A stretch of 64,000 nucleotides of DNA, taken from an uncultured Actinomycetes bacterium. GTDB lineage: Bacteria > Actinomycetota > Thermoleophilia > Gaiellales > Gaiellaceae. The stretch covers positions 173,087-237,086 of the forward strand of contig CAWHBM010000003.1 in NCBI GenBank assembly GCA_963827725.1, read 5' to 3'. The translations under genes were made by a program, and so were the position numbers. The notes under the pieces were generated by a model, which searched no databases, had not been told where the DNA came from, and was given only the letters and a program-made list of their open reading frames with translations. How positions within the stretch are numbered: the first letter of the stretch is position 1; each line of letters opens with the position of its first letter. Shown here in pieces: positions 24,126 to 62,352 of this stretch.

Positions 24126-25069
24126 CAGCGGGGCGGCTGGACCGGATAGAGCAAGCCCGAGACGCCATCGACGTGCTGCCCGGGGCCGCTGAGCGGGTAC
24201 GCATGGATCATCGCCTCGGCTCCCATCCCGTCCACTTCGGAGACGGAGTAGGTCTTGCCGAGGAGGAGCCGACCGTCCTCGATGCGGAACAGGTAGCGGT
24301 CGAGCGCGCGCACCGGCGGGCCGGCCGTGCGATTCCCTTCGTTGTCGTACTGACCTCCGTGACACGGACAGCCGAAGCCGGCGGCGGCCTCGGTCGGGAT
24401 GAGGTCCACGTTCTTAACGGTCGTCTTCTCGTCGTCGAGCGGCAATCCGTTCACCTGAACGGGGCAGCCGAGGTGGACACACCGGTTCGAAAGGATCGTG
24501 AAGCTCGGGTTGCCTTCGAGCAGGCCGTTGTTGCGGATGTACGCAGTTCGCCGCGAGACCTCGCCTTGCTCGGGGTCGAGCAGGAAGGTCGCGATCACGA
24601 ACTTGTTCAACGGGAAGTCGTCGACGGCGCCGACGTCGACCTCAGGATGGTCCTGAGCGATGAAGGGCGGCAGCATGGTGAAACCAAGGATGGGCGCGGT
24701 GATGATTCCGCCGATCACCGCGCCCAGACCGAGCGTCGAGGCCTCGAGGAACTTCGACCGCGGGTAGCGGACGATCTCGCCTTCGTCCAACTCCGACAGG
24801 GCGGGCTCTGCCTTGTGGGCTGGGATCGGCTCAGGCTCCGCGGGCTCCTGCACCGGCCCTGCTCGGTACCCGCTCGTGACGTCGCGGATCCAGAGGAAGC
24901 CGAAGATCGCCGTGAGCACCGCGCCGACTGCCAGGACGATCGTGCCGAGGATCAGGCCGACGAGGATGCAAGCGATGCCGACGGCAAAGCCAACCGGCCA
25001 GATGGTCGGCGCAGGCTCGTGCTGAGTGCCGTGACCGCCGTGCGGATCCACGTCGTGACGCGGATTCAA
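24125..25069 (-). CDS. qcrA: Rieske 2Fe-2S subunit of menaquinol:cytochrome c reductase
   Basis: CVHLGCP and CPCHGGQY cluster-binding boxes, N-terminal TM helices, TTG start at 25069. Confidence 0.85.
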   Translation of the reverse strand: MNPRHDVDPHGGHGTQHEPAPTIWPVGFAVGIACILVGLILGTIVLAVGAVLTAIFGFLWIRDVTSGYRAGPVQEPAEPEPIPAHKAEPALSELDEGEIVRYPRSKFLEASTLGLGAVIGGIITAPILGFTMLPPFIAQDHPEVDVGAVDDFPLNKFVIATFLLDPEQGEVSRRTAYIRNNGLLEGNPSFTILSNRCVHLGCPVQVNGLPLDDEKTTVKNVDLIPTEAAAGFGCPCHGGQYDNEGNRTAGPPVRALDRYLFRIEDGRLLLGKTYSVSEVDGMGAEAMIHAYPLSGPGQHVDGVSGLLYPVQPPR

Positions 25070-42197: not shown

Positions 42198-43295
42198 TCA
42201 GGCGACGGTTCCCTCGAGCCGGCGGATGACCGCAAGCCCGAACTCCGCGGCGCGCGCGCCGTCGACGACGCGATGGTCGAACGTGAGCGAGACGTGGCCG
42301 GTCCGCGCGACGGCGAGTCCGCCGTCGCGAACGACCGGCCGCTCCTCGATGCGCCCGATGCTGAGGATCGCCACCTCGGGATGGTTGACGATCGGCGTCT
42401 GGAAGAGGCCGGCGAGCTTGCCGGCGCTCGTGACGGTGAAGGTCGAGCCGCGCAACTCTTCCGGCTTGAGACTCCCTGCGCGGGCACCCTCCGCCAGCCG
42501 GGCAACCTCGGCCGCAAGCTCGTCGATCGAGGCCGTGTCGCAGTTGCGGACGACCGGGACGACGAGCCCCTCGTCGGTCTGCACGGCAACGCCGAGGTCG
42601 TACCGCTCGAGGTAGACGATCTCGGCGCCTTCGAGCCGGGCGTTCAACTCGGGGAACTCCTTGAGCGACTCCGCGGCGCTCTTGAGCACGGTCGGCAGCA
42701 ACAGCTTGAGGTCGAGCCCGCCGAAGTTGCACTCCTCGACCCACGTCACGGCCGGCACCTCCCGGTGCGCGCGAGCCATGTGCTCGGCGATCACCCGGCG
42801 AATGCCTCTGAGCGGCTCGCGGCGTCCCTCCGAGCCATGTCCAGGGGTCTGACCCCCGGACGTGGCCGCTGCGCGCACGTCCGCTTCGGTCACGCGTCCC
42901 TGCTGGCCGGTGCCGGCCAGCGCTTCGAGGTCTACGTCGAGCTCTTGAGCGAGCCGCCGTACGAGCGGCGTTGCGCGGACACGTCCAGTCTCGCCATGTC
43001 CAGGGGTCTGACCCCCGGACGTGGCCGAAGGGGCCTGGGGCTGTGGAGAAGTGGCGCCGTCGCCCCCGATCACGACGAGGATCGTGCCGACCGCGACGAC
43101 GGTGCCCTCTTCGACGAGGATGCTCGCGACCTTCCCGGCGGCCGGAGACGGGATCTCGACGGTCGTCTTGTCCGTCTGGATCTCGACGAGCGGCTGGTCC
43201 TCCGCGATCTCGTCCCCTTCGGAAACGAGCCAACGGGCGACCTCGCCTTCGGTCAGGCCTTCGCCGAGGTCGGGAAGCTTGAACTCGTAGGCCAC
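42198..43295 (-). CDS. dihydrolipoamide acyltransferase (E2) of a 2-oxoacid dehydrogenase complex
   Basis: GTG 43295. Lipoyl domain (EIQTDKTTVEIPSP), a PSBD domain, and a catalytic domain with DHRVVDGA. The 472-aa track ORF is an artefactual N-terminal extension. Confidence 0.85.
   Translation of the reverse strand: MAYEFKLPDLGEGLTEGEVARWLVSEGDEIAEDQPLVEIQTDKTTVEIPSPAAGKVASILVEEGTVVAVGTILVVIGGDGATSPQPQAPSATSGGQTPGHGETGRVRATPLVRRLAQELDVDLEALAGTGQQGRVTEADVRAAATSGGQTPGHGSEGRREPLRGIRRVIAEHMARAHREVPAVTWVEECNFGGLDLKLLLPTVLKSAAESLKEFPELNARLEGAEIVYLERYDLGVAVQTDEGLVVPVVRNCDTASIDELAAEVARLAEGARAGSLKPEELRGSTFTVTSAGKLAGLFQTPIVNHPEVAILSIGRIEERPVVRDGGLAVARTGHVSLTFDHRVVDGARAAEFGLAVIRRLEGTVA
42834..42868. 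repeat. 35-nt palindromic repeat, copy A, in frame inside E2 linker 2
   Basis: GCCATGTCCAGGGGTCTGACCCCCGGACGTGGCCG. It encodes ATSGGQTPGHG on the minus strand. Confidence 0.9.
42993..43027. repeat. 35-nt palindromic repeat, copy B, in frame inside E2 linker 1
   Basis: Identical 35-mer, 159 nt (53 codons) from copy A. Confidence 0.9.
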
Positions 43296-43306
43296 CGCGG
43301 CGGAAT

Positions 43307-43616
43307 CTATCGGGGGCGGCCGACCCAGGCGTCGGCCGGGGCGATGAGGACGCGCAGGCCGCCCTCGACCCGCCAGAGCGAGACGGCCTGTTCGTCCCCC
43401 GCCAGCTGCGGCGCGGTCTCCCGACGGGACATAGCCGAGCTGGAGCGTTCGCTCTTCGTTCCAGACCGCGACGGCGTTCGAGTCGTGCGGGTTGTCGGGC
43501 TCGGGCACGAGGGCGAGCGCACGGCCGGGCTCGAACGAGGGGTCCTCGAGCGACTCGGGCCGAAAGGAAACGCCGGCGACCGGGACGACGAGAATCGCAG
43601 GGTCTTCCCAGCGCAC
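43307..43616 (-). pseudogene. stand-alone HIRAN-domain protein, apparent +1 frameshift near 43424
   Basis: VVPVAGVSFRP...ALALVPEPDNPHDSNAVAVWNEERTLQLGYVP, then in the other frame RETAPQLAGDEQAVSLWRVEGG...TAG(43307). Length is 310 nt (3n+1). Confidence 0.65.
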
Positions 43617-43691: not shown

Positions 43692-44666
43692 TCAGAACTC
43701 GAGCAGCCGCTCGACGGCGTCCACGACCCGCTCGACCGAGGGCATGTACGCATCCTCGATCTGCCAGTACGGGTAGGGCACGTCGTAGCCGGTCACCCGC
43801 AGCACCGGTCCCCGCAGATCGAGCATCGCCTTCTCGGCGAGGATCGCCGCGAGCTCGGCTCCGTAGCCGGCGGTTCGCGGCGCCTCCTGGATGATCACGA
43901 CCCGCCCGGTCTTGCCTGCGGCAGCGAGCAGCGCCTCCTCGTCGAGGGGCTTCAGCGTCCGGATGTCGAGGATCTCGACGCTCGCGCGCCCGTCGAGCGA
44001 ATCGGCGGCCTGCTCGGCGAGCGGCACCATCGAGCCGTAGGCGACGAGCGTGACGTCGTCGCCCTGCCGCACGGTCCTCGCCTGGCCAAGCGGGACGACG
44101 TGCTCGCCCTCGGGAACCTCGCCGCGCATCGTCCGGTAGTGGAGCTTGGGCTCGAAGATGACGACCGGATCGGGATCGCGAATTGCCGCCGCCAGCAGGC
44201 CTTTTGCGTCGCTCGGGGTAGACGGGATCGCGACCTTCACTCCCGGCGTGTGCACGTAGTAGGCCTCCGGCGAGTCGTCGTGCAGCTCGGGCGCACGCAC
44301 GCCGCCCCCGTACGGCATCCGCACCGTGATCGGGAACTCCATCTTCCCGCCGGTGCGCCAGCGGTAGCGGCCCACGTGCGTGATCAGCTGGTCGAGCGAC
44401 GGATAGCTGAAAGCGTCGTACTGCATCTCGCAGACCGGGCGATAGCCGGCCATGCACAGCCCGACCGCGGTGCCCATGATCCCCGCCTCGGCGAGCGGGG
44501 TGTCGACGCAGCGGTCGGGGCCGTACTTGTCGAGGAGCCCCGCGGTCGCGCGGAAGACACCGCCCACACGGCCGACGTCCTGGCCCATGACCATCACGTC
44601 CTCGTCACGTCCGAGCTCGACGTGGAAGCAGTCGTTGATCGCCTCGAGCAAGGTGAGCTCACTCAC
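43692..44666 (-). CDS. 2-oxoacid dehydrogenase E1 component beta subunit
   Basis: GTG 44666. Transketolase-like pyrimidine-binding and C-terminal domains (DTPLAEAGIMG, PYGGG). Confidence 0.85.
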   Translation of the reverse strand: MSELTLLEAINDCFHVELGRDEDVMVMGQDVGRVGGVFRATAGLLDKYGPDRCVDTPLAEAGIMGTAVGLCMAGYRPVCEMQYDAFSYPSLDQLITHVGRYRWRTGGKMEFPITVRMPYGGGVRAPELHDDSPEAYYVHTPGVKVAIPSTPSDAKGLLAAAIRDPDPVVIFEPKLHYRTMRGEVPEGEHVVPLGQARTVRQGDDVTLVAYGSMVPLAEQAADSLDGRASVEILDIRTLKPLDEEALLAAAGKTGRVVIIQEAPRTAGYGAELAAILAEKAMLDLRGPVLRVTGYDVPYPYWQIEDAYMPSVERVVDAVERLLEF

Positions 44667-55585: not shown

Positions 55586-56482
55586 ATGAGCCAGGAGCAG
55601 GACTTTCTCGAGTACGTGCAGTCCGGCGGCCAGGTCGAGACCGGCGACTGGATGCCCGACGACTACCGGGCGAAGCTGATCAAGTTCATCGAGATGCACG
55701 GCAACTCGGAGCTGATGGGAGTGCTTCCCGAGCGCGAGTGGATCCTCCGCGCGCCGACCCTGCAGCGGAAGCTCGCCCTCACCGCCAAGGTGCAGGACGA
55801 GGTCGGGCACTCGCAGCTCATCTACCGGGTCGTCGAGGACCTCGGCAAGCCTCGGGCGCAGTGCCTCGAGGACCTGATCTCGGGCAAGTCGAAGTTCCAC
55901 AACGTCTTTCACTACCCGACGAAGACCTGGGGTGACGTCGGCGTCATCGCCTGGCTCGTCGACGCCGCGGCGATCATCAGCCAGAAGGCGCTCCTCAAGT
56001 GCTCGTACGCGCCCTACGCGCGGATCATGAAGAAGATCTGCTGGGAGGAGTCGTTCCACATCCTCCACGGGCGCGACGTGATCCTGACGATGATGAACGG
56101 CACCAGCGAGCAGCGTGAGCTCGTCCAGGAGGCGCTCGACCGCTGGTGGGGCCCGCTGATGCAGTTCCACGGGAACCCGATCCCGTCGGAGGAGGACCCG
56201 ATGTACCTCTGGCGGATCAAGAGCCAGGGCAACGGCGAGGCACGCCAGCAGTTCCTCGACGGCTACGTGCCCCAGATCTGGGAGCTCGGCCTGACGGTTC
56301 CGGACCCGAAGCTGCGCAAGAACAAGGACGAGGTCTGGGAGTTCACCGAGCCGGACTGGGACGAGCTGAAGCACGTCGTCACGGGGCACGGGCCGATGAC
56401 CCAGGAGCGGCTCGACCTCCGGCGCACGACGCGGGACGAGACCGAGTGGGTTCGCCGTGCGCTGCTTGCCGAAGCGGCTTAG
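55586..56482 (+). CDS. paaA: 1,2-phenylacetyl-CoA epoxidase subunit A
   Basis: Di-iron ferritin-like motifs QDEVGHSQL and EESFHILHG. 298 aa. Confidence 0.9.
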   Translation: MSQEQDFLEYVQSGGQVETGDWMPDDYRAKLIKFIEMHGNSELMGVLPEREWILRAPTLQRKLALTAKVQDEVGHSQLIYRVVEDLGKPRAQCLEDLISGKSKFHNVFHYPTKTWGDVGVIAWLVDAAAIISQKALLKCSYAPYARIMKKICWEESFHILHGRDVILTMMNGTSEQRELVQEALDRWWGPLMQFHGNPIPSEEDPMYLWRIKSQGNGEARQQFLDGYVPQIWELGLTVPDPKLRKNKDEVWEFTEPDWDELKHVVTGHGPMTQERLDLRRTTRDETEWVRRALLAEAA

Positions 56483-56770
56483 ATGATCTGGGAGGTCTTT
56501 CGCCAGGAGCGCAAGGGGCAGCCCTTTGCGCACGCCGGCTCGGTCGAGGCGCCTGACGCGGCGTACGCCGACGGATACGCGCGCGAGCAGTTCGGCCGCC
56601 GCGGCGAGTCGGTGGCACTGTGGGTCGTCGCACGCGAGAACGTGCACGAGATCGACGAGTTCGTCGACGAGCTCGAGCGCAACTACCACCGCGTCGACGG
56701 CTATCCGCTGAAGGAGAAGCTGAAGGAGGCACGTGAGCGAGCGGGCACAGCTCCTCCTGCCGATCGCTGA
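56483..56770 (+). CDS. paaB: 1,2-phenylacetyl-CoA epoxidase subunit B
   Basis: MIWEVFRQERKGQPFAHAGSV... is a typical PaaB N-terminus. 95 aa. Confidence 0.9.
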   Translation: MIWEVFRQERKGQPFAHAGSVEAPDAAYADGYAREQFGRRGESVALWVVARENVHEIDEFVDELERNYHRVDGYPLKEKLKEARERAGTAPPADR

Positions 56771-57305
56771 CGACGAGCTCGTCCTCGGCTGGCGCAATTC
56801 CGAGTGGACCGGCATCGCGCCATTCCTCGAGGAGGACGTCGCCTTCTCGTCGATCGCCCAGAACGAGATCGGCCACGCGCGGGCGCTGTACCAGCTCGCC
56901 GCCGAGGAGCTGGGGACGACCGCCGACGAGCTCGCCTTCGACCGCAAGCCGGAGGAGTACCAATGCTCGAAGTTCGTCGAGCTCCGTTTCGTGCCCGACT
57001 GGGCGAAGACGATTGCGCGGCACTACCTCTACGAGCAGGCCGACGAACGGCGCATCCACGCGCTGATGGAGTCCGACGACGCCGAAGTCGCAGGCCTCGC
57101 GGCGAAGATCGACCGCGAAGAGGCATACCACCGGATGCACGCGCAGATGTGGTTCGACCGGCTGAAGGACGAGCCTCGGTTCATCGAAGCCGTCGAAGAG
57201 TTGCAGCCGTTGGTCGAGGAGCGGGGCGAGCACACACCCGAGTTCGCGGAGCTGTGGGACGAGATGACGATGGTGCGACGCTCGGTCGCGGGGGCGACGT
57301 GGTAA
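56733..57305 (+). CDS. paaC: 1,2-phenylacetyl-CoA epoxidase subunit C
   Basis: [43 protein letters not shown]. Confidence 0.85.
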   Translation: [190 protein letters not shown]

Positions 57306-57784
57306 CCGCCGAAGCCGTCTGGTCCGCGCTCGCGGAGATCCCAGACCCGGAGATCCCGCCGATCTCGATCGTCGACCTCGGCGTCGTACGCAGCGTTGCC
57401 GTCGAGAACGGAACCGTCCGAGTCGAGTTCACGCCGACTTTCCTCGGCTGCCCAGCGCTCGAGGTGATGCGCGACCAGATGGCCGACCGGATCCGCGAGC
57501 TCGGCGCCGAGCCGGAGGTGCGAGTGATCCTCGACGACTCGTGGTCGACCGACCGGATCACGCCCGAAGGTCGCGAGAAGCTCCGCGAGTCGGGTTTCGC
57601 CCCGCCTTCCCCACGAGAGGCCGGCGGCCCGCAGCTCGTCCAGCTCCAGAGCAAGTCGTTCCGGTGCCCGTACTGCAACTCGACCGAGACGCGTCTCGAG
57701 AACATCTTCGGCCCCACGCCGTGCCGCTCGCTCCGCTACTGCGAGAGCTGCCGCCAGCCGTTCGAGCAGTTCAAGACCATCTAG
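57299..57784 (+). CDS. paaD: phenylacetate-CoA oxygenase subunit PaaD (DUF59 + C-terminal Zn-ribbon Cys motif)
   Basis: GTG 57299. IPDPEIPPISIVDLGVV and CPYC...CESC. Confidence 0.85.
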   Translation: MVTAEAVWSALAEIPDPEIPPISIVDLGVVRSVAVENGTVRVEFTPTFLGCPALEVMRDQMADRIRELGAEPEVRVILDDSWSTDRITPEGREKLRESGFAPPSPREAGGPQLVQLQSKSFRCPYCNSTETRLENIFGPTPCRSLRYCESCRQPFEQFKTI

Positions 57785-57790
57785 CCAACC

Positions 57791-57864
57791 CTTAACAGGG
57801 TCTGACCCCGTAAACCTTTACAGGGTCTGACCCCGTGATCTTTACGGGGTCTGACCCCGTTAAG
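57791..57864. repeat. three tandem ~25-nt hairpin units, core GGGTCTGACCCC
   Basis: Cores lie at 57798-57809, 57823-57834 and 57847-57858. Each unit is TTAC/TAAC-(A/G)GGGTCTGACCCCGT. The array is flanked by CTTAAC ... GTTAAG. Confidence 0.85.
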
Positions 57865-57882
57865 AGGCGGTAGGTTTCCGGC

Positions 57883-58104
57883 GTGGCCAAGGTTTTGATC
57901 CAGTACTGCCCCGTCTGAGACAGCTACGACACACGGGCCGCGAGTCTCGCGGCCGAGCTGAACGACGAGACCGAGCACGAAGCGGGGATCGAAGAGGGCG
58001 CGAAGAGCCAGTACGACGTGCTCGCGGACGGTGAGCTGATCTTCTCCAAGCAGCACGAAGGACGGTTCCCGGAGCACTCGGAGATCCGCGCACTACTCGG
58101 GTAG
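57883..58104 (+). CDS. SelW/Rdx-family selenoprotein candidate (CxxU; UGA at 57916-57918 read as Sec)
   Basis: The reading is VAKVLIQYCPV-U-DSYDTRAASLAAELNDETEHEAGIEEGAKSQYDVLADGELIFSKQHEGRFPEHSEIRALLG-TAG. It matches the Rdx layout YCxxC/U...RA...G.y.V..dGelifSK...gRFPe..ei. It is absent from the ORF track because of the in-frame TGA. Confidence 0.65.
57921..57960 (+). other. bacterial SECIS-like stem-loop
   Basis: Upper stem GGCCGCG/CGCGGCC (57936-57942 / 57948-57954) with an AGUCU loop. Lower stem CAGCU/AGCUG (57921-25 / 57956-60). It begins 3 nt after the UGA. Confidence 0.5.
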
Positions 58105-58105
58105 C

Positions 58106-58417
58106 TCAGTGTCCGACGGAGAGAAAGAGCATCGCAACAAGCAGTAGAAGGGGAGCGACCGCCGCGGCAGGCCACACGAAGGGGCGCAAGCGAGCGCCCC
58201 GCGGTAGAGCGGCCAGGAGCAGACCGATGATGGTCGCGGCCACGATGGCGAGTGTCACGACGACGATGGTGGCTGCGCCCCCCTTGCTGGCGTGTTCCCA
58301 GCGAGAGACGTCACTGTTCCCGTAATACCCGTCGTTTCCGGAGGCGAAGAGCACGAGCCCGGCAAGTCCGGCCCCCAAAACGAGGGCGGTCACGACGTAT
58401 CTCATGTTTGCTATCAT
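58106..58417 (-). CDS. small 3-TM membrane protein (hypothetical)
   Basis: 103-aa ORF. An alternative start is ATG 58405 (MRYVVTAL). Divergent from the XRE regulator. Confidence 0.45.
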   Translation of the reverse strand: MIANMRYVVTALVLGAGLAGLVLFASGNDGYYGNSDVSRWEHASKGGAATIVVVTLAIVAATIIGLLLAALPRGARLRPFVWPAAAVAPLLLLVAMLFLSVGH

Positions 58418-58431: not shown

Positions 58432-58716
58432 ATGCAGCCTGAAGCTTTCGAGCGGCTCCGCGAGCGCCTCGCGCACGTCGATCCCGACCAGGGGTGGTTC
58501 TTCGCCCGCGTCGCGAAGCAGGTCACGCAGCAGCGAAAGGCCCGCGGGCTCTCGCAAAAGGAGCTCGCCGAGTTGACCGGCACGACACAGTCCGCGATCG
58601 CGCGGCTCGAGTCTGGCGGGCGGCCCCCGCGCATCGATACCTTGCTACGCATCGCGGAGGCGCTCGACTGCGAGCTCGTCGTCGACCTGAAGCCGAGAGC
58701 CGCTAAGAGCCGGTGA
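58432..58716 (+). CDS. XRE-family helix-turn-helix transcriptional regulator
   Basis: AGAGGTGG RBS. HTH LSQKELAELTGTTQSAIARLESG. Confidence 0.8.
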   Translation: MQPEAFERLRERLAHVDPDQGWFFARVAKQVTQQRKARGLSQKELAELTGTTQSAIARLESGGRPPRIDTLLRIAEALDCELVVDLKPRAAKSR

Positions 58717-59473
58717 ACTCGGGCGGCCGCTTCTCGAGGAAAGCGGAGACGCCTTCCCGGAAGTCGTCCGTCTGAGTAGCTGCGGTCTGGAGCCCGGCCT
58801 CGAGCTCGAGCTGCTCCTCGAGAGTGTTGTGCGCCGCCTGGTCGAAGAGATGCTTGGTCATCCCCGCACCCCGGGTAGGCATCGCAGCGAGCTGCGCGGC
58901 GAGATCGGCCGTCCGCGCGACGAGATCATCGTCCTCCACGACCTCCGAGACGAGGCCCCAGGCCTGGGCCTCGGCCGCAGTGAGCTTCCGGCCCGAAGTC
59001 ATCCACTCGAAAGCGCGCGCGTAGCCGAGCAGGCGGGTAACGAAGAACGTCCCACCGGAGTCCGGCACGAGCCCGATGTTGATGAAAGCCGGCACGAAGC
59101 TCGCCGAGTCGGCGGCAATGCGGATGTCGCACGCGCAGGCAAACGAGAGCCCTGCTCCGGCGGCCGCTCCGTTCACGGCGGCGATCACCGGCTTCTCGAG
59201 CTGCCGGATCGCGAGCACGTTCGGGTGGTAGTTCTCGCGCAGGCGGCTGCCGATGTCGCCGGGCGCCTCGCGGAACTCGGACAGGTCCTGGCCGACGCAG
59301 AACCCACGTCCTGCACCGGTGAGGACGACCGCCCGCACGGCAGCGTCGGCGGCCTCTTCCAGCGCAGCGCCCAGGGCCTTGTGCATGGCCGCGTTGAAGG
59401 CGTTCAGGACCTCGGGGCGATTGAGCGTGATTGTCAGCACGCTTCCCTCGCGGCTTGTCTCCACCTCCGCCAT
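58703..59473 (-). CDS. enoyl-CoA hydratase/isomerase family protein (PaaG-like by context)
   Basis: Crotonase fold: VVLTGAGRGFCVGQDL, AAVNGAAAGAG, and a C-terminus FREGVSAFLEKRPPEF. Confidence 0.75.
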   Translation of the reverse strand: MAEVETSREGSVLTITLNRPEVLNAFNAAMHKALGAALEEAADAAVRAVVLTGAGRGFCVGQDLSEFREAPGDIGSRLRENYHPNVLAIRQLEKPVIAAVNGAAAGAGLSFACACDIRIAADSASFVPAFINIGLVPDSGGTFFVTRLLGYARAFEWMTSGRKLTAAEAQAWGLVSEVVEDDDLVARTADLAAQLAAMPTRGAGMTKHLFDQAAHNTLEEQLELEAGLQTAATQTDDFREGVSAFLEKRPPEFTGS

Positions 59474-59513
59474 CCGCCGCAGCCTACAAGCGCCTTGCTA
59501 GCTTCGAAGCCCC

Positions 59514-60482
59514 ATGCCGGAGCTGCATTTCATCGCGGAACCGCCAAACGAAACAGCGGCGCTCGACGCCTACTCGCGCGCGGTCACCTCGGTAGCGGAG
59601 CGGCTCGCTCCGTCGGTTGCAAGCCTGCGTGTCTCCCGCCGCGTTCGGGGAGGCCGACGGCTTGACGGAGGCGGGAGCGCCGTCGTCATCACACCTGACG
59701 GGTTCCTTCTCACGTCGGCGCACGTCGTCGCGCAGACCGACGGCTCGGGCCGCGCCTCGTTCGTCGACGGCAGCGAGCACGAGTTCACGCTCGTGGGCGC
59801 CGATCCGCTCTCGGACCTGGCCGTGCTTCGGCTCGACACGAACGGCCTCACGGCTGCGGAGCTCGGCGACGCGGATCGCCTGCGTGTCGGCCAGCTCGTG
59901 GTCGCAATCGGCAGCCCGCTCGGCTTCGGCGGAACGCTGACGGCAGGCGTCGTCTCGGCGCTCGGCCGCTCGTTGCCGGTTCCAGCGGGACGGGTCGTCG
60001 AGAACGTGATTCAAACCGACGCGGCGCTCAATCCGGGCAACTCCGGCGGAGCGCTCGCCGACGCAACCGCACAGGTGATCGGGATCAACACGGCGGTTGC
60101 CGGCCTGGGGCTTGGCCTGGCGGTGCCGATCGACGCGGCGACGCGCCGGATCATCGCTGCGCTCATGAGCGAGGGCCGCTTTCGACGCGCCTACATCGGC
60201 ATCGCCGGCGGCTCGCGGCCGCTTCCGCCCCGGCTCGCGTCCCGTCTGGGACGCCAGTCGGCGATCGAGGTCGTCGAAGTCGTCGACGGAAGCCCCGCCG
60301 ATGGTGCCGGCCTTCGGCCCGAGGATCTGATCGTCGCGCTCGACGGCGTCGCCGTCGAACAGGTGAACGATCTTCAGCGCCTGATGGCCGGCGAGCAAAT
60401 CGGTCGCACCGCCACGATGCAGGTCGTCCGCGGAGGCGAACCGATCTCGGTCGAGGTCGTCCCGGCCGAGCTCAGCGTCTGA
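59514..60482 (+). CDS. S1C (HtrA/DegP-like) trypsin-fold serine protease with PDZ domain
   Basis: TSAHVV (His), DLAVLR (Asp) and GNSGGAL (Ser) catalytic triad, plus a C-terminal PDZ-like region. There is no evident signal peptide. Confidence 0.8.
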   Translation: MPELHFIAEPPNETAALDAYSRAVTSVAERLAPSVASLRVSRRVRGGRRLDGGGSAVVITPDGFLLTSAHVVAQTDGSGRASFVDGSEHEFTLVGADPLSDLAVLRLDTNGLTAAELGDADRLRVGQLVVAIGSPLGFGGTLTAGVVSALGRSLPVPAGRVVENVIQTDAALNPGNSGGALADATAQVIGINTAVAGLGLGLAVPIDAATRRIIAALMSEGRFRRAYIGIAGGSRPLPPRLASRLGRQSAIEVVEVVDGSPADGAGLRPEDLIVALDGVAVEQVNDLQRLMAGEQIGRTATMQVVRGGEPISVEVVPAELSV

Positions 60483-60771
60483 GCGCGAACACCACACCGA
60501 CGAGGAAGGCCAGCCCGACGATGCGGTTGACGTCGACCGCCGGCACCCACCTCACGTCGCCGCCCTGGATCACGTAAGCGCCCACCGGCTTCGCCCCGAG
60601 ACCGAAGCCAGCGCCCCCGTCACCCTCGCTGTCGCCCCCTCCACCTCCGCCACCGCCGACCTTCGCGGCCGGAATGACGGTTACACCCTCGGACTCGATC
60701 GGATCGCCGTAGACACGCTTGACGGTAATCGCGTCCCTGGCACCTCCGAGCAGTTCATCGATGTTCGGCAT
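60472..60771 (-). CDS. GerW/YtfJ-family protein
   Basis: ATG 60771 follows a GGGAGG RBS. VYGDPIESEGVTVIPAAKVGGGGGGGG...PVGAYVIQGGDVRWVP. Confidence 0.65.
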   Translation of the reverse strand: MPNIDELLGGARDAITVKRVYGDPIESEGVTVIPAAKVGGGGGGGGDSEGDGGAGFGLGAKPVGAYVIQGGDVRWVPAVDVNRIVGLAFLVGVVFALRR

Positions 60772-60773
60772 CG

Positions 60774-61544
60774 TTACCTCCCTTTGAAATCTGGCTTGCG
60801 CTTTTCGAGGAAGGCGTTCAGGCCCTCCTTGGTGTCCTCGGACGCGAAGGCGAGATAGAGCAGCCGCCGCTCGTACTCGAGGCCGAGCTGAAGCGGTCCC
60901 TCGAACGACCTGTCGATTCCCTCCTTGGCGAGCCGCGTCGCGATGGGCGCCTTCGACGCGATCTCGTGCGCCACTTTCTTGGCCTCGTCTAGCCACGCGT
61001 CCTCGTCGACGACTCGCGCGACGAGGCCGGCTGCCAGCGCCTCCTGCGCGGACAGGAAGCGGCCGCTGAGGATCACGTCCATCGCCAGCGACTTCCCAAC
61101 GGCCCGTGTCAGCCGCTGGGTTCCGCCGGCGCCGGGAATCACGCCGACCCCGGTCTCCGGCTGGCCGAACTTCGCGGTCTCCGACGCGATGATCAGGTCG
61201 CAGGCCATGGCCAGCTCGCAGCCGCCGCCGAGGCAGTAACCCGAGACCGCGGCAACGAGCGGCGTCCAGAGCCCGCGGATCGCGTCCCAGCGCTCGATCC
61301 GCCGCTGGTAGTAGAGGTCGATCGCCGACGAGCGCGCCAGCTCGGCGATGTCCGCCCCCGCGGCGAAGGCTTTGTCGTTGCCGCCGAGGACGATGCAGCG
61401 AACGGCTTCGTCGCGGTCGAGCTCCTCGAGCGTGCCGACAAGTTGCTCCATCAGCTCGTCGGAGAGCGCGTTCAGCGCGTCGGGCCGGTTCAGAAGGACG
61501 ACCGCGACCGGACCGTCCCGCTCCCTAAGGACGAGCTCGCTCAT
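60774..61544 (-). CDS. enoyl-CoA hydratase (crotonase, PaaF-like by context)
   Basis: ATG 61544 (ATGA overlap). LNRPDALNAL, GGNDKAFAAGADI and SGYCLGGGCELAM. Confidence 0.8.
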   Translation of the reverse strand: MSELVLRERDGPVAVVLLNRPDALNALSDELMEQLVGTLEELDRDEAVRCIVLGGNDKAFAAGADIAELARSSAIDLYYQRRIERWDAIRGLWTPLVAAVSGYCLGGGCELAMACDLIIASETAKFGQPETGVGVIPGAGGTQRLTRAVGKSLAMDVILSGRFLSAQEALAAGLVARVVDEDAWLDEAKKVAHEIASKAPIATRLAKEGIDRSFEGPLQLGLEYERRLLYLAFASEDTKEGLNAFLEKRKPDFKGR

Positions 61545-62352
61545 TTCTCCTTGTCGAGAAAGCGGCGGATCGCGGCCTTCGGCTCCTCGGTCGCCATCGA
61601 CAGCGCGAGCCAGTCGCGGGCGTGGTTGATCGTCTCGTGCCAGGCGAAGTCCTTCCAGAAGTTCAGGTGCTGCTTCGCGTAGCGCGTCGTCTGCGGGAGC
61701 TTGCGCGCGAGGTTCTCGACCATTCGATCGACCTCCGCGTCGAGCTCGGCGGCGGGGACGACGCGGTTCACGAGCCCCCACTCCTCGCCTTGGCCGCCGG
61801 GATCTCCTCGCACATGAGGACGATCTCGCGAGCACGCCGATCGCCGACCATGATCGTCAGCCACTGCGTCGCACCGCCGGCGGGAACCGACCCGTGCTCG
61901 GGGCCGACGTGCCGGATGAAGGCGTCGTCGACCATGACCGCGAGGTCGCAGGCCATCTGGAACTCGTTCCCTCCGCCGACCGCGATGCCGTTGATCCGCG
62001 CGACGGTCGGCTTGCCGATCTCCCGCAGCCGATCGTGTGCGTCCTTGAAGGCGCCGAACCACTTCCAGTACTCGTTCGGCTTGTCGAGATAGTCGTCGCC
62101 CCAGGAGCTGAGGTCGGCACCGACGCAAAAGGCCCGGCCGGCTCCGGTCAGGACGACGACGCGGATCTCGTCGTCCCAGGAGGCATCCTCACACGCGCGC
62201 GCGAGCTCTCTGAGCATCTGGAAGTCGAACGCGTTGAGGATCTCGGGACGGTTGAACGTGATCGTCGCCCGCGGGGGAGCCTTCTCGTAGACGATCTTCT
62301 CGAAGCCGAGCTCGTCCGGCGAGCGCGGGCTCGGGTACGTGGGCTCAGTCAG
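61541..62352 (-). pseudogene. enoyl-CoA hydratase/isomerase family protein, apparent -1 frameshift near 61787; CTG start candidate
   Basis: FNRPEILNAF...LTGAGRAFCVGADL...NGIAVGGGNEF is in the first frame. EEWGLVNRVVPAAELD...FLDKEK is in the second. Length is 812 nt (3n+2). GGGAG-N5-CTG at 62362-62350, and GC3 rises sharply at the CTG. Confidence 0.7.

What the first reader, a model, noticed from the sequence alone, without database searches (positions are those of the whole stretch)
57883..58104. Hidden SelW/Rdx-like selenoprotein gene: in-frame TGA in a CxxU motif with a SECIS-like hairpin
Reading the + strand from GTG 57883 gives VAKVLIQYCPV, then TGA at 57916-57918, then DSYDTRAASLAAELNDETEHEAGIEEGAKSQYDVLADGELIFSKQHEGRFPEHSEIRALLG and TAG at 58102-58104. 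This is the Rdx (SelW/SelT/SelH) layout. The TGA sits exactly where the second redox Cys or Sec lies (C-P-V-U).

Three nt after the UGA a two-tier stem-loop can form. The lower stem is CAGCU/AGCUG. The upper is a perfect 7-bp stem GGCCGCG/CGCGGCC with an AGUCU loop, about 24 nt from the UGA. That is the geometry expected for a bacterial SECIS.

The six-frame track lists nothing here, so a stop-codon-based caller would miss the gene. It also implies Sec-decoding machinery elsewhere in this high-GC genome.
Basis: partly seen in the sequence, partly recalled or inferred. Interest (0 to 1): 0.8.

Follow-up and report, generated by a model that had tools for sequence, protein, structure and literature searches.

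The report
Unannotated SelW-like selenoprotein gene
This is a real 73-codon gene for a small redox protein that reads an internal UGA "stop" as selenocysteine; gene callers miss it, but it belongs to a bacterial selenoprotein family known since 2005, so it is a correct but ordinary find.

Summary
Reading 57883-58104 (+) through the TGA at 57916-57918 gives a 73-residue protein. It passes the curated cut-offs of Pfam Rdx (44.7 bits vs 22.6) and NCBIfam TIGR02174 (36.7 vs 34.2), and the domain spans the TGA.

- **TGA conservation:** of 52 related genomic loci from several phyla, 49 have TGA at the CxxU column and never TAA or TAG, 2 have TGC (Cys), and 1 is degraded.
- **Coding upstream:** the 11 codons before the TGA evolve like coding sequence.
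- **SECIS hairpin:** an 8-bp hairpin with an A-GUC-U apical loop lies 25 nt after the UGA. It meets all four published bacterial SECIS criteria and shows compensatory changes across phyla. Its synonymous sites are frozen in the actinobacterial clade (3/125 minor codons vs 152/772 elsewhere).
- **Fold:** a confident model of a 93%-identical Cys homologue has the SelW/Rdx fold.
- **Not testable:** no selA, selB, selD or tRNA-Sec lies in the window or in relatives' flanks, and the rest of the genome was not available.

SelW-like CxxU proteins are a long-known, abundant bacterial selenoprotein family, so this is a new member of a known kind. Its main value is for annotation.

The parts
57883..58104 (+). 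Complete SelW-like/Rdx selenoprotein gene: GTG start, 73 codons with Sec (U) at codon 12, TAG stop
   Evidence: Translation. Pfam Rdx 44.7 bits vs cut-off 22.6, residues 3-71 on profile 1-71/74. TIGR02174 36.7 vs 34.2. GC by codon position 0.68/0.38/0.85, like neighbouring genes, on both sides of the TGA; the antisense ORFs lack this signature.
57869..57874 (+). GGTAGG, a possible ribosome-binding site 8 nt before the GTG start
   Evidence: Read directly from the sequence. The same cGGTAGGTTc string precedes the start in L001 and L004. Its function is inferred, not tested.
57907..57918 (+). Redox motif Cys-Pro-Val-Sec (TGC CCC GTC TGA)
   Evidence: Y-C-P-[V/T]-TGA is invariant in the actinobacterial relatives while Pro uses all four codons. 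It aligns to the YCxxC of the solved Rdx proteins 2LJK and 3DEX. In the model it lies between strand 1 and helix 1.
57916..57918 (+). Sec-encoding UGA
   Evidence: 49 of 52 related loci have TGA here, 2 have TGC, 1 is degraded, and none has TAA or TAG. A 93%-identical metagenome homologue has TGT.
57936..57954 (+). Bacterial SECIS core: 8-bp stem GGCCGCGA/UCGCGGCC with apical loop GUC (or 7 bp with loop A-GUC-U), 25 nt after the UGA
   Evidence: All four bSECIS criteria are met, with -14.7 kcal/mol for the hairpin alone. Across 43 distinct sequences the helix is 86% paired, 4 of 8 pairs have compensatory changes, and the covariation score is 0.21 against at most 0.09 for slid controls, with 0 of 500 shuffles as high. 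Synonymous sites are frozen: 3/125 minor codons against 152/772 elsewhere. Ser21 is AGT in 18/18 although AGT is 1.6% of Ser codons in confident genes here.
57921..57960 (+). Span of the optional lower stem CAGCU (57921-57925) / AGCUG (57956-57960) that encloses the SECIS core
   Evidence: It forms in the minimum-free-energy fold. It is only 69% paired across the family, has no compensatory change, and is not conserved outside the close clade. It is not required by the evidence.

Best explanation
The region 57883-58104 (+) is a functional gene for a 73-residue SelW-like (Rdx family) selenoprotein.

Proposed mechanism: translation starts at GTG 57883. When the ribosome reaches UGA 57916-57918, the mRNA hairpin 57936-57954 inside the coding sequence acts as a bacterial SECIS. 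It recruits SelB-GTP-Sec-tRNA(Sec) through its apical A-GUC-U loop, so selenocysteine is inserted instead of terminating. The product is a small thioredoxin-like protein with topology strand1-CxxU-helix1-strand2-strand3-strand4-helix2. Its Cys9-x-x-Sec12 pair forms a reversible selenenylsulfide and acts as a thiol/selenol oxidoreductase.

What is shown: family and fold membership, the Sec/Cys column, conservation of TGA and of the coding sequence on both sides of it, and the RNA-level constraint and covariation on the hairpin.

What is inferred: SelB-dependent decoding, presence of selA/selB/selC/selD elsewhere in the genome, and the redox chemistry. The physiological substrate is unknown, as it is for bacterial Rdx proteins in general.
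For: - **Family:** Pfam Rdx E = 1.6e-11, 44.7 bits (cut-off 22.6). The 11 residues before the TGA add about 13 bits over the C-terminal part alone. TIGR02174 CXXU_selWTH scores 36.7 against 34.2.
- **Fold:** AlphaFold2 of the 93%-identical Cys homologue P0001 gives pLDDT 92 and the expected topology. The top 23 Foldseek PDB hits are all Rdx structures, including V. cholerae SelW-related 2P0G, 2FA8, 3DEX, MIEN1 and mouse SelW, with TM 0.68-0.84.
- **Recoding signature:** 49 TGA, 2 TGC, 0 TAA/TAG at the CxxU column in 52 loci from Actinomycetota, Planctomycetota, Marinimicrobia and others. Most database homologues are 47-58-aa truncated calls. Entries with 'W' at this column are TGA translated under another code.
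- **Coding on both sides:** GC3 is 0.91 upstream and 0.85 downstream of the TGA. Upstream codons change synonymously while the YCP[VT] motif is fixed.
- **SECIS:** the published criteria are met (PMC13188914). Compensatory changes include third-position pairs (columns 30-36: CG 27, GC 13, UA 1). Synonymous sites are frozen, Fisher p about 7e-8, and a rare AGT codon is invariant at the loop.
- **No code change:** TGA is the ordinary stop of 28 of 40 confident ORFs, so there is no genome-wide reassignment.
- **Literature:** SelW-like CxxU selenoproteins with in-ORF SECIS are established in bacteria (PMC1088965, PMC1794560). Sec use is documented in Actinobacteria such as Rubrobacter (PMC1794560) and Mycobacterium (PMC13449736).
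Against: No selA, selB, selD or tRNA gene was found in the 64-kb window or in the 6-kb flanks of the 52 related loci. The rest of the genome could not be examined, so Sec-decoding capacity in this organism is inferred only.

The hairpin's stability is not significant from the single sequence (z = -1.63). No Rfam family matches it. The Fisher test and the shuffle control ignore shared ancestry. There is no expression or selenium-incorporation data.
Confidence: 0.93

Rival explanations
1. Pseudogene: a Cys-type Rdx gene that suffered a TGC/TGT to TGA nonsense mutation and is no longer expressed as a protein.
For: A single base separates TGA from the Cys codons. One 93%-identical metagenome contig has TGT at this position. 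No Sec machinery was seen in the window.
Against: The same TGA is present in 49 of 52 loci spanning several phyla and 36-93% protein identity, with intact reading frames and conserved residues on both sides. A decaying pseudogene would not keep GC3 at 0.85-0.91 or a frozen hairpin.
Confidence: 0.02
2. True termination at UGA: only an 11-residue peptide is made, or the C-terminal part is translated independently from a downstream start, and the hairpin is a regulatory or stabilising element.
For: Gene callers in public databases start many homologues downstream of the TGA.
Against: In this window the first in-frame ATG/GTG/TTG after the TGA is at codon 46, which leaves 28 residues. The downstream part alone lacks strand 1 and the CxxU motif of the fold. 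The upstream 11 codons are under protein-level selection and contribute to the HMM score. The downstream 'starts' used by callers differ from locus to locus.
Confidence: 0.02
3. Non-Sec read-through: the UGA is decoded by a near-cognate or suppressor tRNA (for example as Trp or Cys), with the hairpin acting as a read-through stimulator, in a genome that lacks the Sec system.
For: Sec machinery was not observed. The minimal bSECIS criteria are unspecific in this GC-rich DNA, where 43% of TGAs pass.
Against: The column is the catalytic Cys/Sec position of a family whose UGA members are accepted selenoproteins (PMC1088965). The apical loop keeps the G-U that the bSECIS model requires, across phyla and against codon bias. 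TGA is exclusive, which fits Sec. No such Sec-independent system is known for this family.
Confidence: 0.03

Closest known systems
Bacterial SelW-like selenoproteins (CxxU), as catalogued in the Sargasso Sea/GOS selenoproteomes and in sequenced genomes (PMC1088965, PMC1794560, PMC2398784)
   Same: Same Pfam/TIGRFAM family. Same CxxU motif near the N-terminus. Sec-UGA is followed within the ORF by a small-loop hairpin with a G in the apical loop. Cys homologues are rare (2 of 52 here), as reported for this family. Size is about 70-75 residues.
   Different: The lineage is uncultured soil Actinomycetota: the best relatives are Gaiellaceae and Solirubrobacterales MAGs. Here the gene is embedded in a phenylacetate (paa) catabolic cluster. 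I found no paper naming this clade.
Cys-type bacterial Rdx proteins with solved structures (V. cholerae 2P0G, A. tumefaciens 2FA8, S. avermitilis SAV_2001 3DEX, Pseudomonas 2OBK/2OKA, Bordetella 2OJL)
   Same: Same fold, TM 0.68-0.84 to the model of the close Cys homologue. The CxxC aligns with CxxU.
   Different: They carry Cys rather than Sec and are about 100 residues with extensions. Sequence identity is only 20-29%, and sequence-only E-values are weak at 0.01-0.1.
Mammalian selenoprotein W (mouse SelW, 2NPB) and MIEN1 (2LJK)
   Same: Rdx fold and a CxxU/CxxC motif in the same loop.
   Different: The eukaryotic SECIS lies in the 3' UTR and has a different architecture (PMC1088965, Fig. 7 legend). 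Here the element is inside the ORF, immediately after the UGA.
E. coli fdhF-type bacterial SECIS and the consensus bSECIS model (PMC13188914, Fig. 2A)
   Same: A hairpin directly downstream of the UGA, a small apical loop with G-U, and a UGA-to-loop distance within 16-37 nt.
   Different: There is no primary-sequence resemblance. SelB binding is untested. The element overlaps the codons for the conserved peptide R-A-A-S-L-A-A.

Membership tests
Rdx / SelT-SelW-SelH family (Pfam PF10262, NCBIfam TIGR02174) | Score above the curated HMM cut-off over the whole domain | tested here: met
   PF10262 scores 44.7 bits against 22.6, residues 3-71 on profile 1-71/74. TIGR02174 scores 36.7 against 34.2. 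U was replaced by C for scoring.
Rdx / SelT-SelW-SelH family (Pfam PF10262, NCBIfam TIGR02174) | CxxC/CxxU motif in the loop between strand 1 and helix 1 | tested here: met
   C9-P-V-U12 aligns with the YCxxC of 2LJK and 3DEX. In the model, strand 1 is residues 3-8 and helix 1 is residues 15-29.
Rdx / SelT-SelW-SelH family (Pfam PF10262, NCBIfam TIGR02174) | Thioredoxin-like strand1-helix1-strand2-strand3-strand4-helix2 fold | tested here: met
   AlphaFold2 model of the 93%-identical Cys homologue P0001 has pLDDT 92.1. The top 23 PDB matches are all Rdx structures. The window protein itself was not modelled because it contains U.
NCBIfam NF041051 SelTWH_Campy (equivalog) | Score above the equivalog cut-off | tested here: not met
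   57.2 bits against a cut-off of 88. It is the best-scoring model but the protein is not an equivalog member.
Bacterial selenoprotein gene (Sec-UGA plus bSECIS) | In-frame UGA at a column occupied by Cys in homologues, with conserved coding sequence on both sides | tested here: met
   49 TGA and 2 TGC in 52 loci (1 degraded), plus TGT in L055. Coding signature and synonymous change are seen upstream of the TGA.
Bacterial selenoprotein gene (Sec-UGA plus bSECIS) | bSECIS model: 3-9 nt apical loop, 4-16 bp upper stem, G in the first two loop positions, 16-37 nt from UGA to loop, MFE of -7.5 kcal/mol or lower (PMC13188914, Fig. 2A) | tested here: met
   Loop GUC (or A-GUC-U), 8-bp stem, 25 nt spacing, -14.7 kcal/mol. 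The minimal criteria are unspecific here, since 43% of TGAs pass them.
Bacterial selenoprotein gene (Sec-UGA plus bSECIS) | The hairpin is conserved as a structure (covariation) rather than only as protein-coding sequence | tested here: met
   4 of 8 pairs are compensatory, including third-position pairs, with covariation 0.21 against at most 0.09 for slid controls. Synonymous sites are frozen. The lower stem is not supported.
Bacterial selenoprotein gene (Sec-UGA plus bSECIS) | selA, selB, selD and tRNA-Sec present in the same genome | not testable with these tools
   Absent from the 64-kb window and from 52 loci of about 12 kb. Exact-match look-ups of three window proteins found no source contig.
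Bacterial selenoprotein gene (Sec-UGA plus bSECIS) | Selenium actually incorporated at the UGA position | not testable with these tools
   This needs 75Se labelling or mass spectrometry.
Any curated Rfam RNA family | Covariance-model match to the hairpin region | tested here: not met
   No hit at gathering score in the window. Only noise (E > 4, unrelated families) appears in a permissive scan of 57860-58120.

The most novel reading that the evidence does not exclude
In this Gaiellaceae-like clade the Rdx selenoprotein may be a working part of the phenylacetyl-CoA epoxidase system. It sits directly after paaABCD, where paaE normally lies, and in L004 it starts only 15 nt after the paaD stop. 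No PaaE reductase homologue occurs in the 64-kb window or in the relatives' flanks. PaaG- and PaaF-like genes follow. The selenoprotein might deliver or relay reducing equivalents to the oxygenase, or protect it. If so, a bacterial SelW-like protein would have a defined physiological partner for the first time.
Probability: 0.06. Interest if true: 0.6.

Novelty: new member of a known kind. Interest (0 to 1): 0.25.

Why it matters
The practical value is for annotation. This gene and more than a hundred homologues in public databases are either missed or recorded as 47-58-residue fragments that start after the UGA. A few are mistranslated with Trp at the Sec position.

The finding also implies that an uncultured, abundant soil actinobacterial lineage (Gaiellaceae/Solirubrobacterales-like MAGs) decodes selenocysteine. 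That is relevant to selenium use in soils.

The family provides a clean example of an RNA signal constraining synonymous sites inside a coding sequence. It does not change what is known about selenoproteins or SECIS elements.

Tried and rejected
- **Rfam:** no match at gathering thresholds on the whole window, and none in a permissive scan of the gene.
- **tRNA-Sec:** ARAGORN found no tRNA in the window or in 52 loci.
- **Sec machinery proteins:** tblastn with E. coli SelA, SelB and SelD against the window and all loci gave no hit at E <= 1e-3.
- **Source contig:** exact-match look-ups of three window proteins (HtrA-like, PaaA, XRE) found nothing on record.
- **Literature on the lineage:** a search for selenoproteins in Thermoleophilia, Gaiella, Conexibacter or Solirubrobacter found nothing relevant. 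BSepDB text has no mention of SelW or Actinobacteria.
- **Second selenoprotein gene:** a composition-based scan for read-through TGAs gave three candidates. One is this gene. The one at 24456 has non-coding-like GC2. The one at 43694(-) is the ordinary stop of an E1-beta gene followed in frame by the E2 gene.
- **Lower SECIS stem:** rejected as a conserved feature.
- **Upstream palindrome in metagenomes:** the scan hit more than 120 contigs, but most appear to be unrelated terminator-like hairpins that share a GC-rich 17-mer. I did not treat them as one family.
- **Antisense ORFs over the region (98, 77 and 83 aa):** rejected on codon-position composition.

Full report
**Observation.** GTG at 57883 opens a frame that reads VAKVLIQYCPV, then TGA (57916-57918), then 61 more codons to TAG at 58102-58104. 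No + strand ORF of at least 40 aa is listed here. After the TGA the first in-frame start codon is at codon 46, so stop-based gene callers find nothing. The stem-loop also exists: GGCCGCG(A) at 57936-57943 pairs with (U)CGCGGCC at 57947-57954 around a GUC loop, and an outer CAGCU/AGCUG stem can form. From this sequence alone the fold is not significant (z = -1.63).

**Protein family.** With U replaced by C, the 73-residue product matches Pfam Rdx (PF10262) at E = 1.6e-11 and 44.7 bits, against a cut-off of 22.6, covering profile positions 1-71 of 74. The part after the TGA scores only 32 bits on its own, so the domain spans the stop codon. NCBIfam TIGR02174 (CXXU_selWTH) is passed at 36.7 against 34.2. 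The Campylobacter-type equivalog NF041051 is the best hit but falls below its cut-off, at 57.2 against 88. Weak sequence matches in the PDB are all Rdx proteins, and they align their YCxxC with YCPVU. An AlphaFold2 model of P0001, a 93%-identical homologue with Cys at the Sec position, is confident (pLDDT 92.1). Its topology is strand1 (3-8), CxxC, helix1 (15-29), three strands, then a C-terminal helix. Its top 23 Foldseek matches in the PDB are all Rdx-family structures: 2P0G, 2OBK, 3DEX, 2FA8, 2OJL, 2OKA, MIEN1 2LJK and mouse SelW 2NPB, with TM 0.68-0.84. Thioredoxins follow.

**Is the TGA decoded?** A scan of one genome per species found 52 related loci. Thirteen come from uncultured Actinomycetota (Gaiellaceae and Solirubrobacterales MAGs) at 56-93% identity. 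The rest come from Planctomycetota, Marinimicrobia, Krumholzibacteriia, Vulcanimicrobiota, Synergistia and others at 36-46% identity. Forty-nine loci carry TGA at the CxxU column, two (both labelled Thermodesulfovibrio/Thermodesulfovibrionales MAGs) carry TGC, one is degraded, and none has TAA or TAG.

Most of the 121 database homologues are 47-58-residue fragments called from varying downstream starts. The few full-length entries were checked at the DNA level for P0001, P0073, P0061 and P0085. P0073 has W at the Sec column, which is TGA translated under another genetic code. P0001 has TGT. P0061 and P0085 have TCA and AGA on singleton contigs; the AGA one has about 1.5x coverage.

The frame has the codon-position GC signature of real genes in this 69% GC window (0.68/0.38/0.85, compared with PaaA at 0.65/0.38/0.95). 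This holds on both sides of the TGA (GC3 0.91 and 0.85). The three overlapping antisense ORFs do not have it. In the actinobacterial clade the 11 upstream codons change synonymously: Pro10 uses all four codons, and Val4 uses four. The motif Y-C-P-[V/T]-TGA is fixed. TGA is the ordinary stop of 28 of 40 confident ORFs in the window, so the code is not reassigned.

**SECIS.** The published bacterial model (PMC13188914, Fig. 2A) asks for four things:

- a 3-9 nt apical loop on a 4-16 bp stem;
- a G in the first two loop positions, typically N1-G-[G/U]-N-N2 with N1 and N2 pairing;
- 16-37 nt between the UGA and the loop;
- a minimum free energy of -7.5 kcal/mol or lower.

The window has an 8-bp perfect stem, an A-GUC-U loop, 25 nt spacing and -14.7 kcal/mol. 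These minimal criteria are weak in GC-rich DNA, since 43% of the window's 1,205 TGAs pass them. Only 0.75% have a stem as long as this one.

The decisive evidence is comparative. A hairpin with an AGUYU-type loop sits at the same offset in nearly all UGA-containing loci, with different stem sequences. On an alignment of 43 distinct sequences the upper helix is 86% paired. Four of its eight pairs show changes on both sides, including pairs formed by two third-codon positions (columns 30-36: CG 27, GC 13, UA 1). The covariation score is 0.21 against at most 0.09 for slid controls, and 0 of 500 shuffles reach it.

Within the actinobacterial clade, codons 18-24 (R-A-A-S-L-A-A), which form the hairpin, use a non-majority synonymous codon in 3 of 125 cases. 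Elsewhere in the gene the figure is 152 of 772 (Fisher p about 7e-8, ignoring shared ancestry). Two of those three variants are GCC to GCU, which keeps a G-U pair. Ser21 supplies the loop G-U and is AGT in 18 of 18 sequences, although AGT is 1.6% of Ser codons in ten confident genes of the window. No Rfam family matches the element.

**What could not be shown.** The window and the flanks of all 52 loci contain no tRNA gene and no SelA, SelB or SelD homologue. Three window proteins are not in the exact-match index, so the source contig could not be found or extended. Sec-decoding machinery in this genome is therefore inferred from the conservation pattern. It is also consistent with known Sec use in Actinobacteria: Rubrobacter xylanophilus is listed with five selenoproteins in PMC1794560, and the mycobacterial Sec machinery is described in PMC13449736.

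**Context.** Upstream lie paaA, paaB, paaC and paaD. Downstream lie a convergent 103-residue membrane ORF, an XRE-type regulator, a PaaG-like enoyl-CoA hydratase on the minus strand, an HtrA-like protease and a PaaF-like hydratase. This order is conserved in L001-L012. It is not conserved in the more distant L013 (no hits) or in L056, where the neighbours are HMA, proline racemase and ECH genes. No PaaE homologue occurs in the window or the flanks. In L004 the Rdx start is 15 nt after the paaD stop. A functional link to phenylacetate oxidation is possible, but it rests only on synteny among close relatives.

**Comparison with what is known.** SelW-like proteins with a CxxU motif and an in-ORF SECIS were described as a bacterial selenoprotein family two decades ago. 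They were the most abundant family in the Sargasso Sea data, with 48 genes (PMC1088965). [quoted passage not shown] JGI already labels fragments of close homologues 'predicted Rdx family selenoprotein'. The gene here is a new member of that family in an uncultured soil actinobacterial lineage.

**Verdict.**

- Novelty is low, so interest is 0.25.
- The main value is correcting annotation and flagging Sec use in this lineage.

Noticed in passing
window 57787-57865: Three tandem units of 24-25 nt lie between the paaD stop and the Rdx start. Each contains the palindrome ACrGGGTC-T-GACCCCGT. The spacer folds into a very stable extended structure (-53.2 kcal/mol, z = -4.9), with copy 1 pairing with copy 3. 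Copy number varies among relatives: 2 in L001, at least 1 in L003, none in L004. No sigma-70 promoter or T-tailed terminator consensus was found. Tandem copies of the same unit occur at unrelated loci in soil metagenomes (L089, L112, L120), so it looks like a dispersed REP-like element. It may terminate or stabilise the paa transcript.
   Followed up: partly
window 42836-42868 and 42995-43027: A 33-nt imperfect palindrome, CCATGTCCAGGGGTCTGACCCCCGGACGTGGCC, shares the core GGGTCTGACCCC with the spacer repeat. It occurs twice, 159 nt apart, inside the coding sequence of the E2 acyltransferase gene (42198-43616, minus strand). There it encodes a duplicated linker peptide ATSGGQTPGHG. It could be an in-frame insertion of a palindromic element into a flexible linker, or a coincidence.
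   Followed up: partly
window 58102-58108: The TAG stop of the Rdx gene (58102-58104) and the stop of the convergent 103-residue membrane ORF (58106-58417, minus strand) are separated by a single base, which leaves no room for a terminator between them. The membrane ORF has no Pfam match but is weakly conserved in relatives.
   Followed up: no
L056 980-1198, L057 419-637; proteins P0023, P0029, P0073, P0091: Public metagenome annotations list full-length homologues with Trp at the Sec position. For P0073, the one checked, the DNA has TGA, so the contig was translated under a TGA=Trp code. This is a recurring annotation artefact for short selenoprotein genes.
   Followed up: yes
L055 607-828 (JGI Ga0604525_089531): A 93%-identical homologue has TGT (Cys) in place of TGA while keeping the SECIS hairpin sequence unchanged. 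It is either a very recent Sec-to-Cys conversion or a sequencing error on a singleton 1.9-kb contig.
   Followed up: partly
window 55586-57784 and 58703-62304: The phenylacetate cluster here has paaA-D, a PaaG-like gene, a PaaF-like gene and a third enoyl-CoA hydratase. It has no PaaE reductase homologue anywhere in the 64-kb window or in the flanks of 12 relatives.
   Followed up: partly
52 loci L001-L052 (about 550 kb in all): ARAGORN reported no tRNA gene in any of the 52 loci or in the 64-kb window. Zero in roughly 600 kb of bacterial DNA seems low to me and may be worth checking against another tRNA finder.
   Followed up: no
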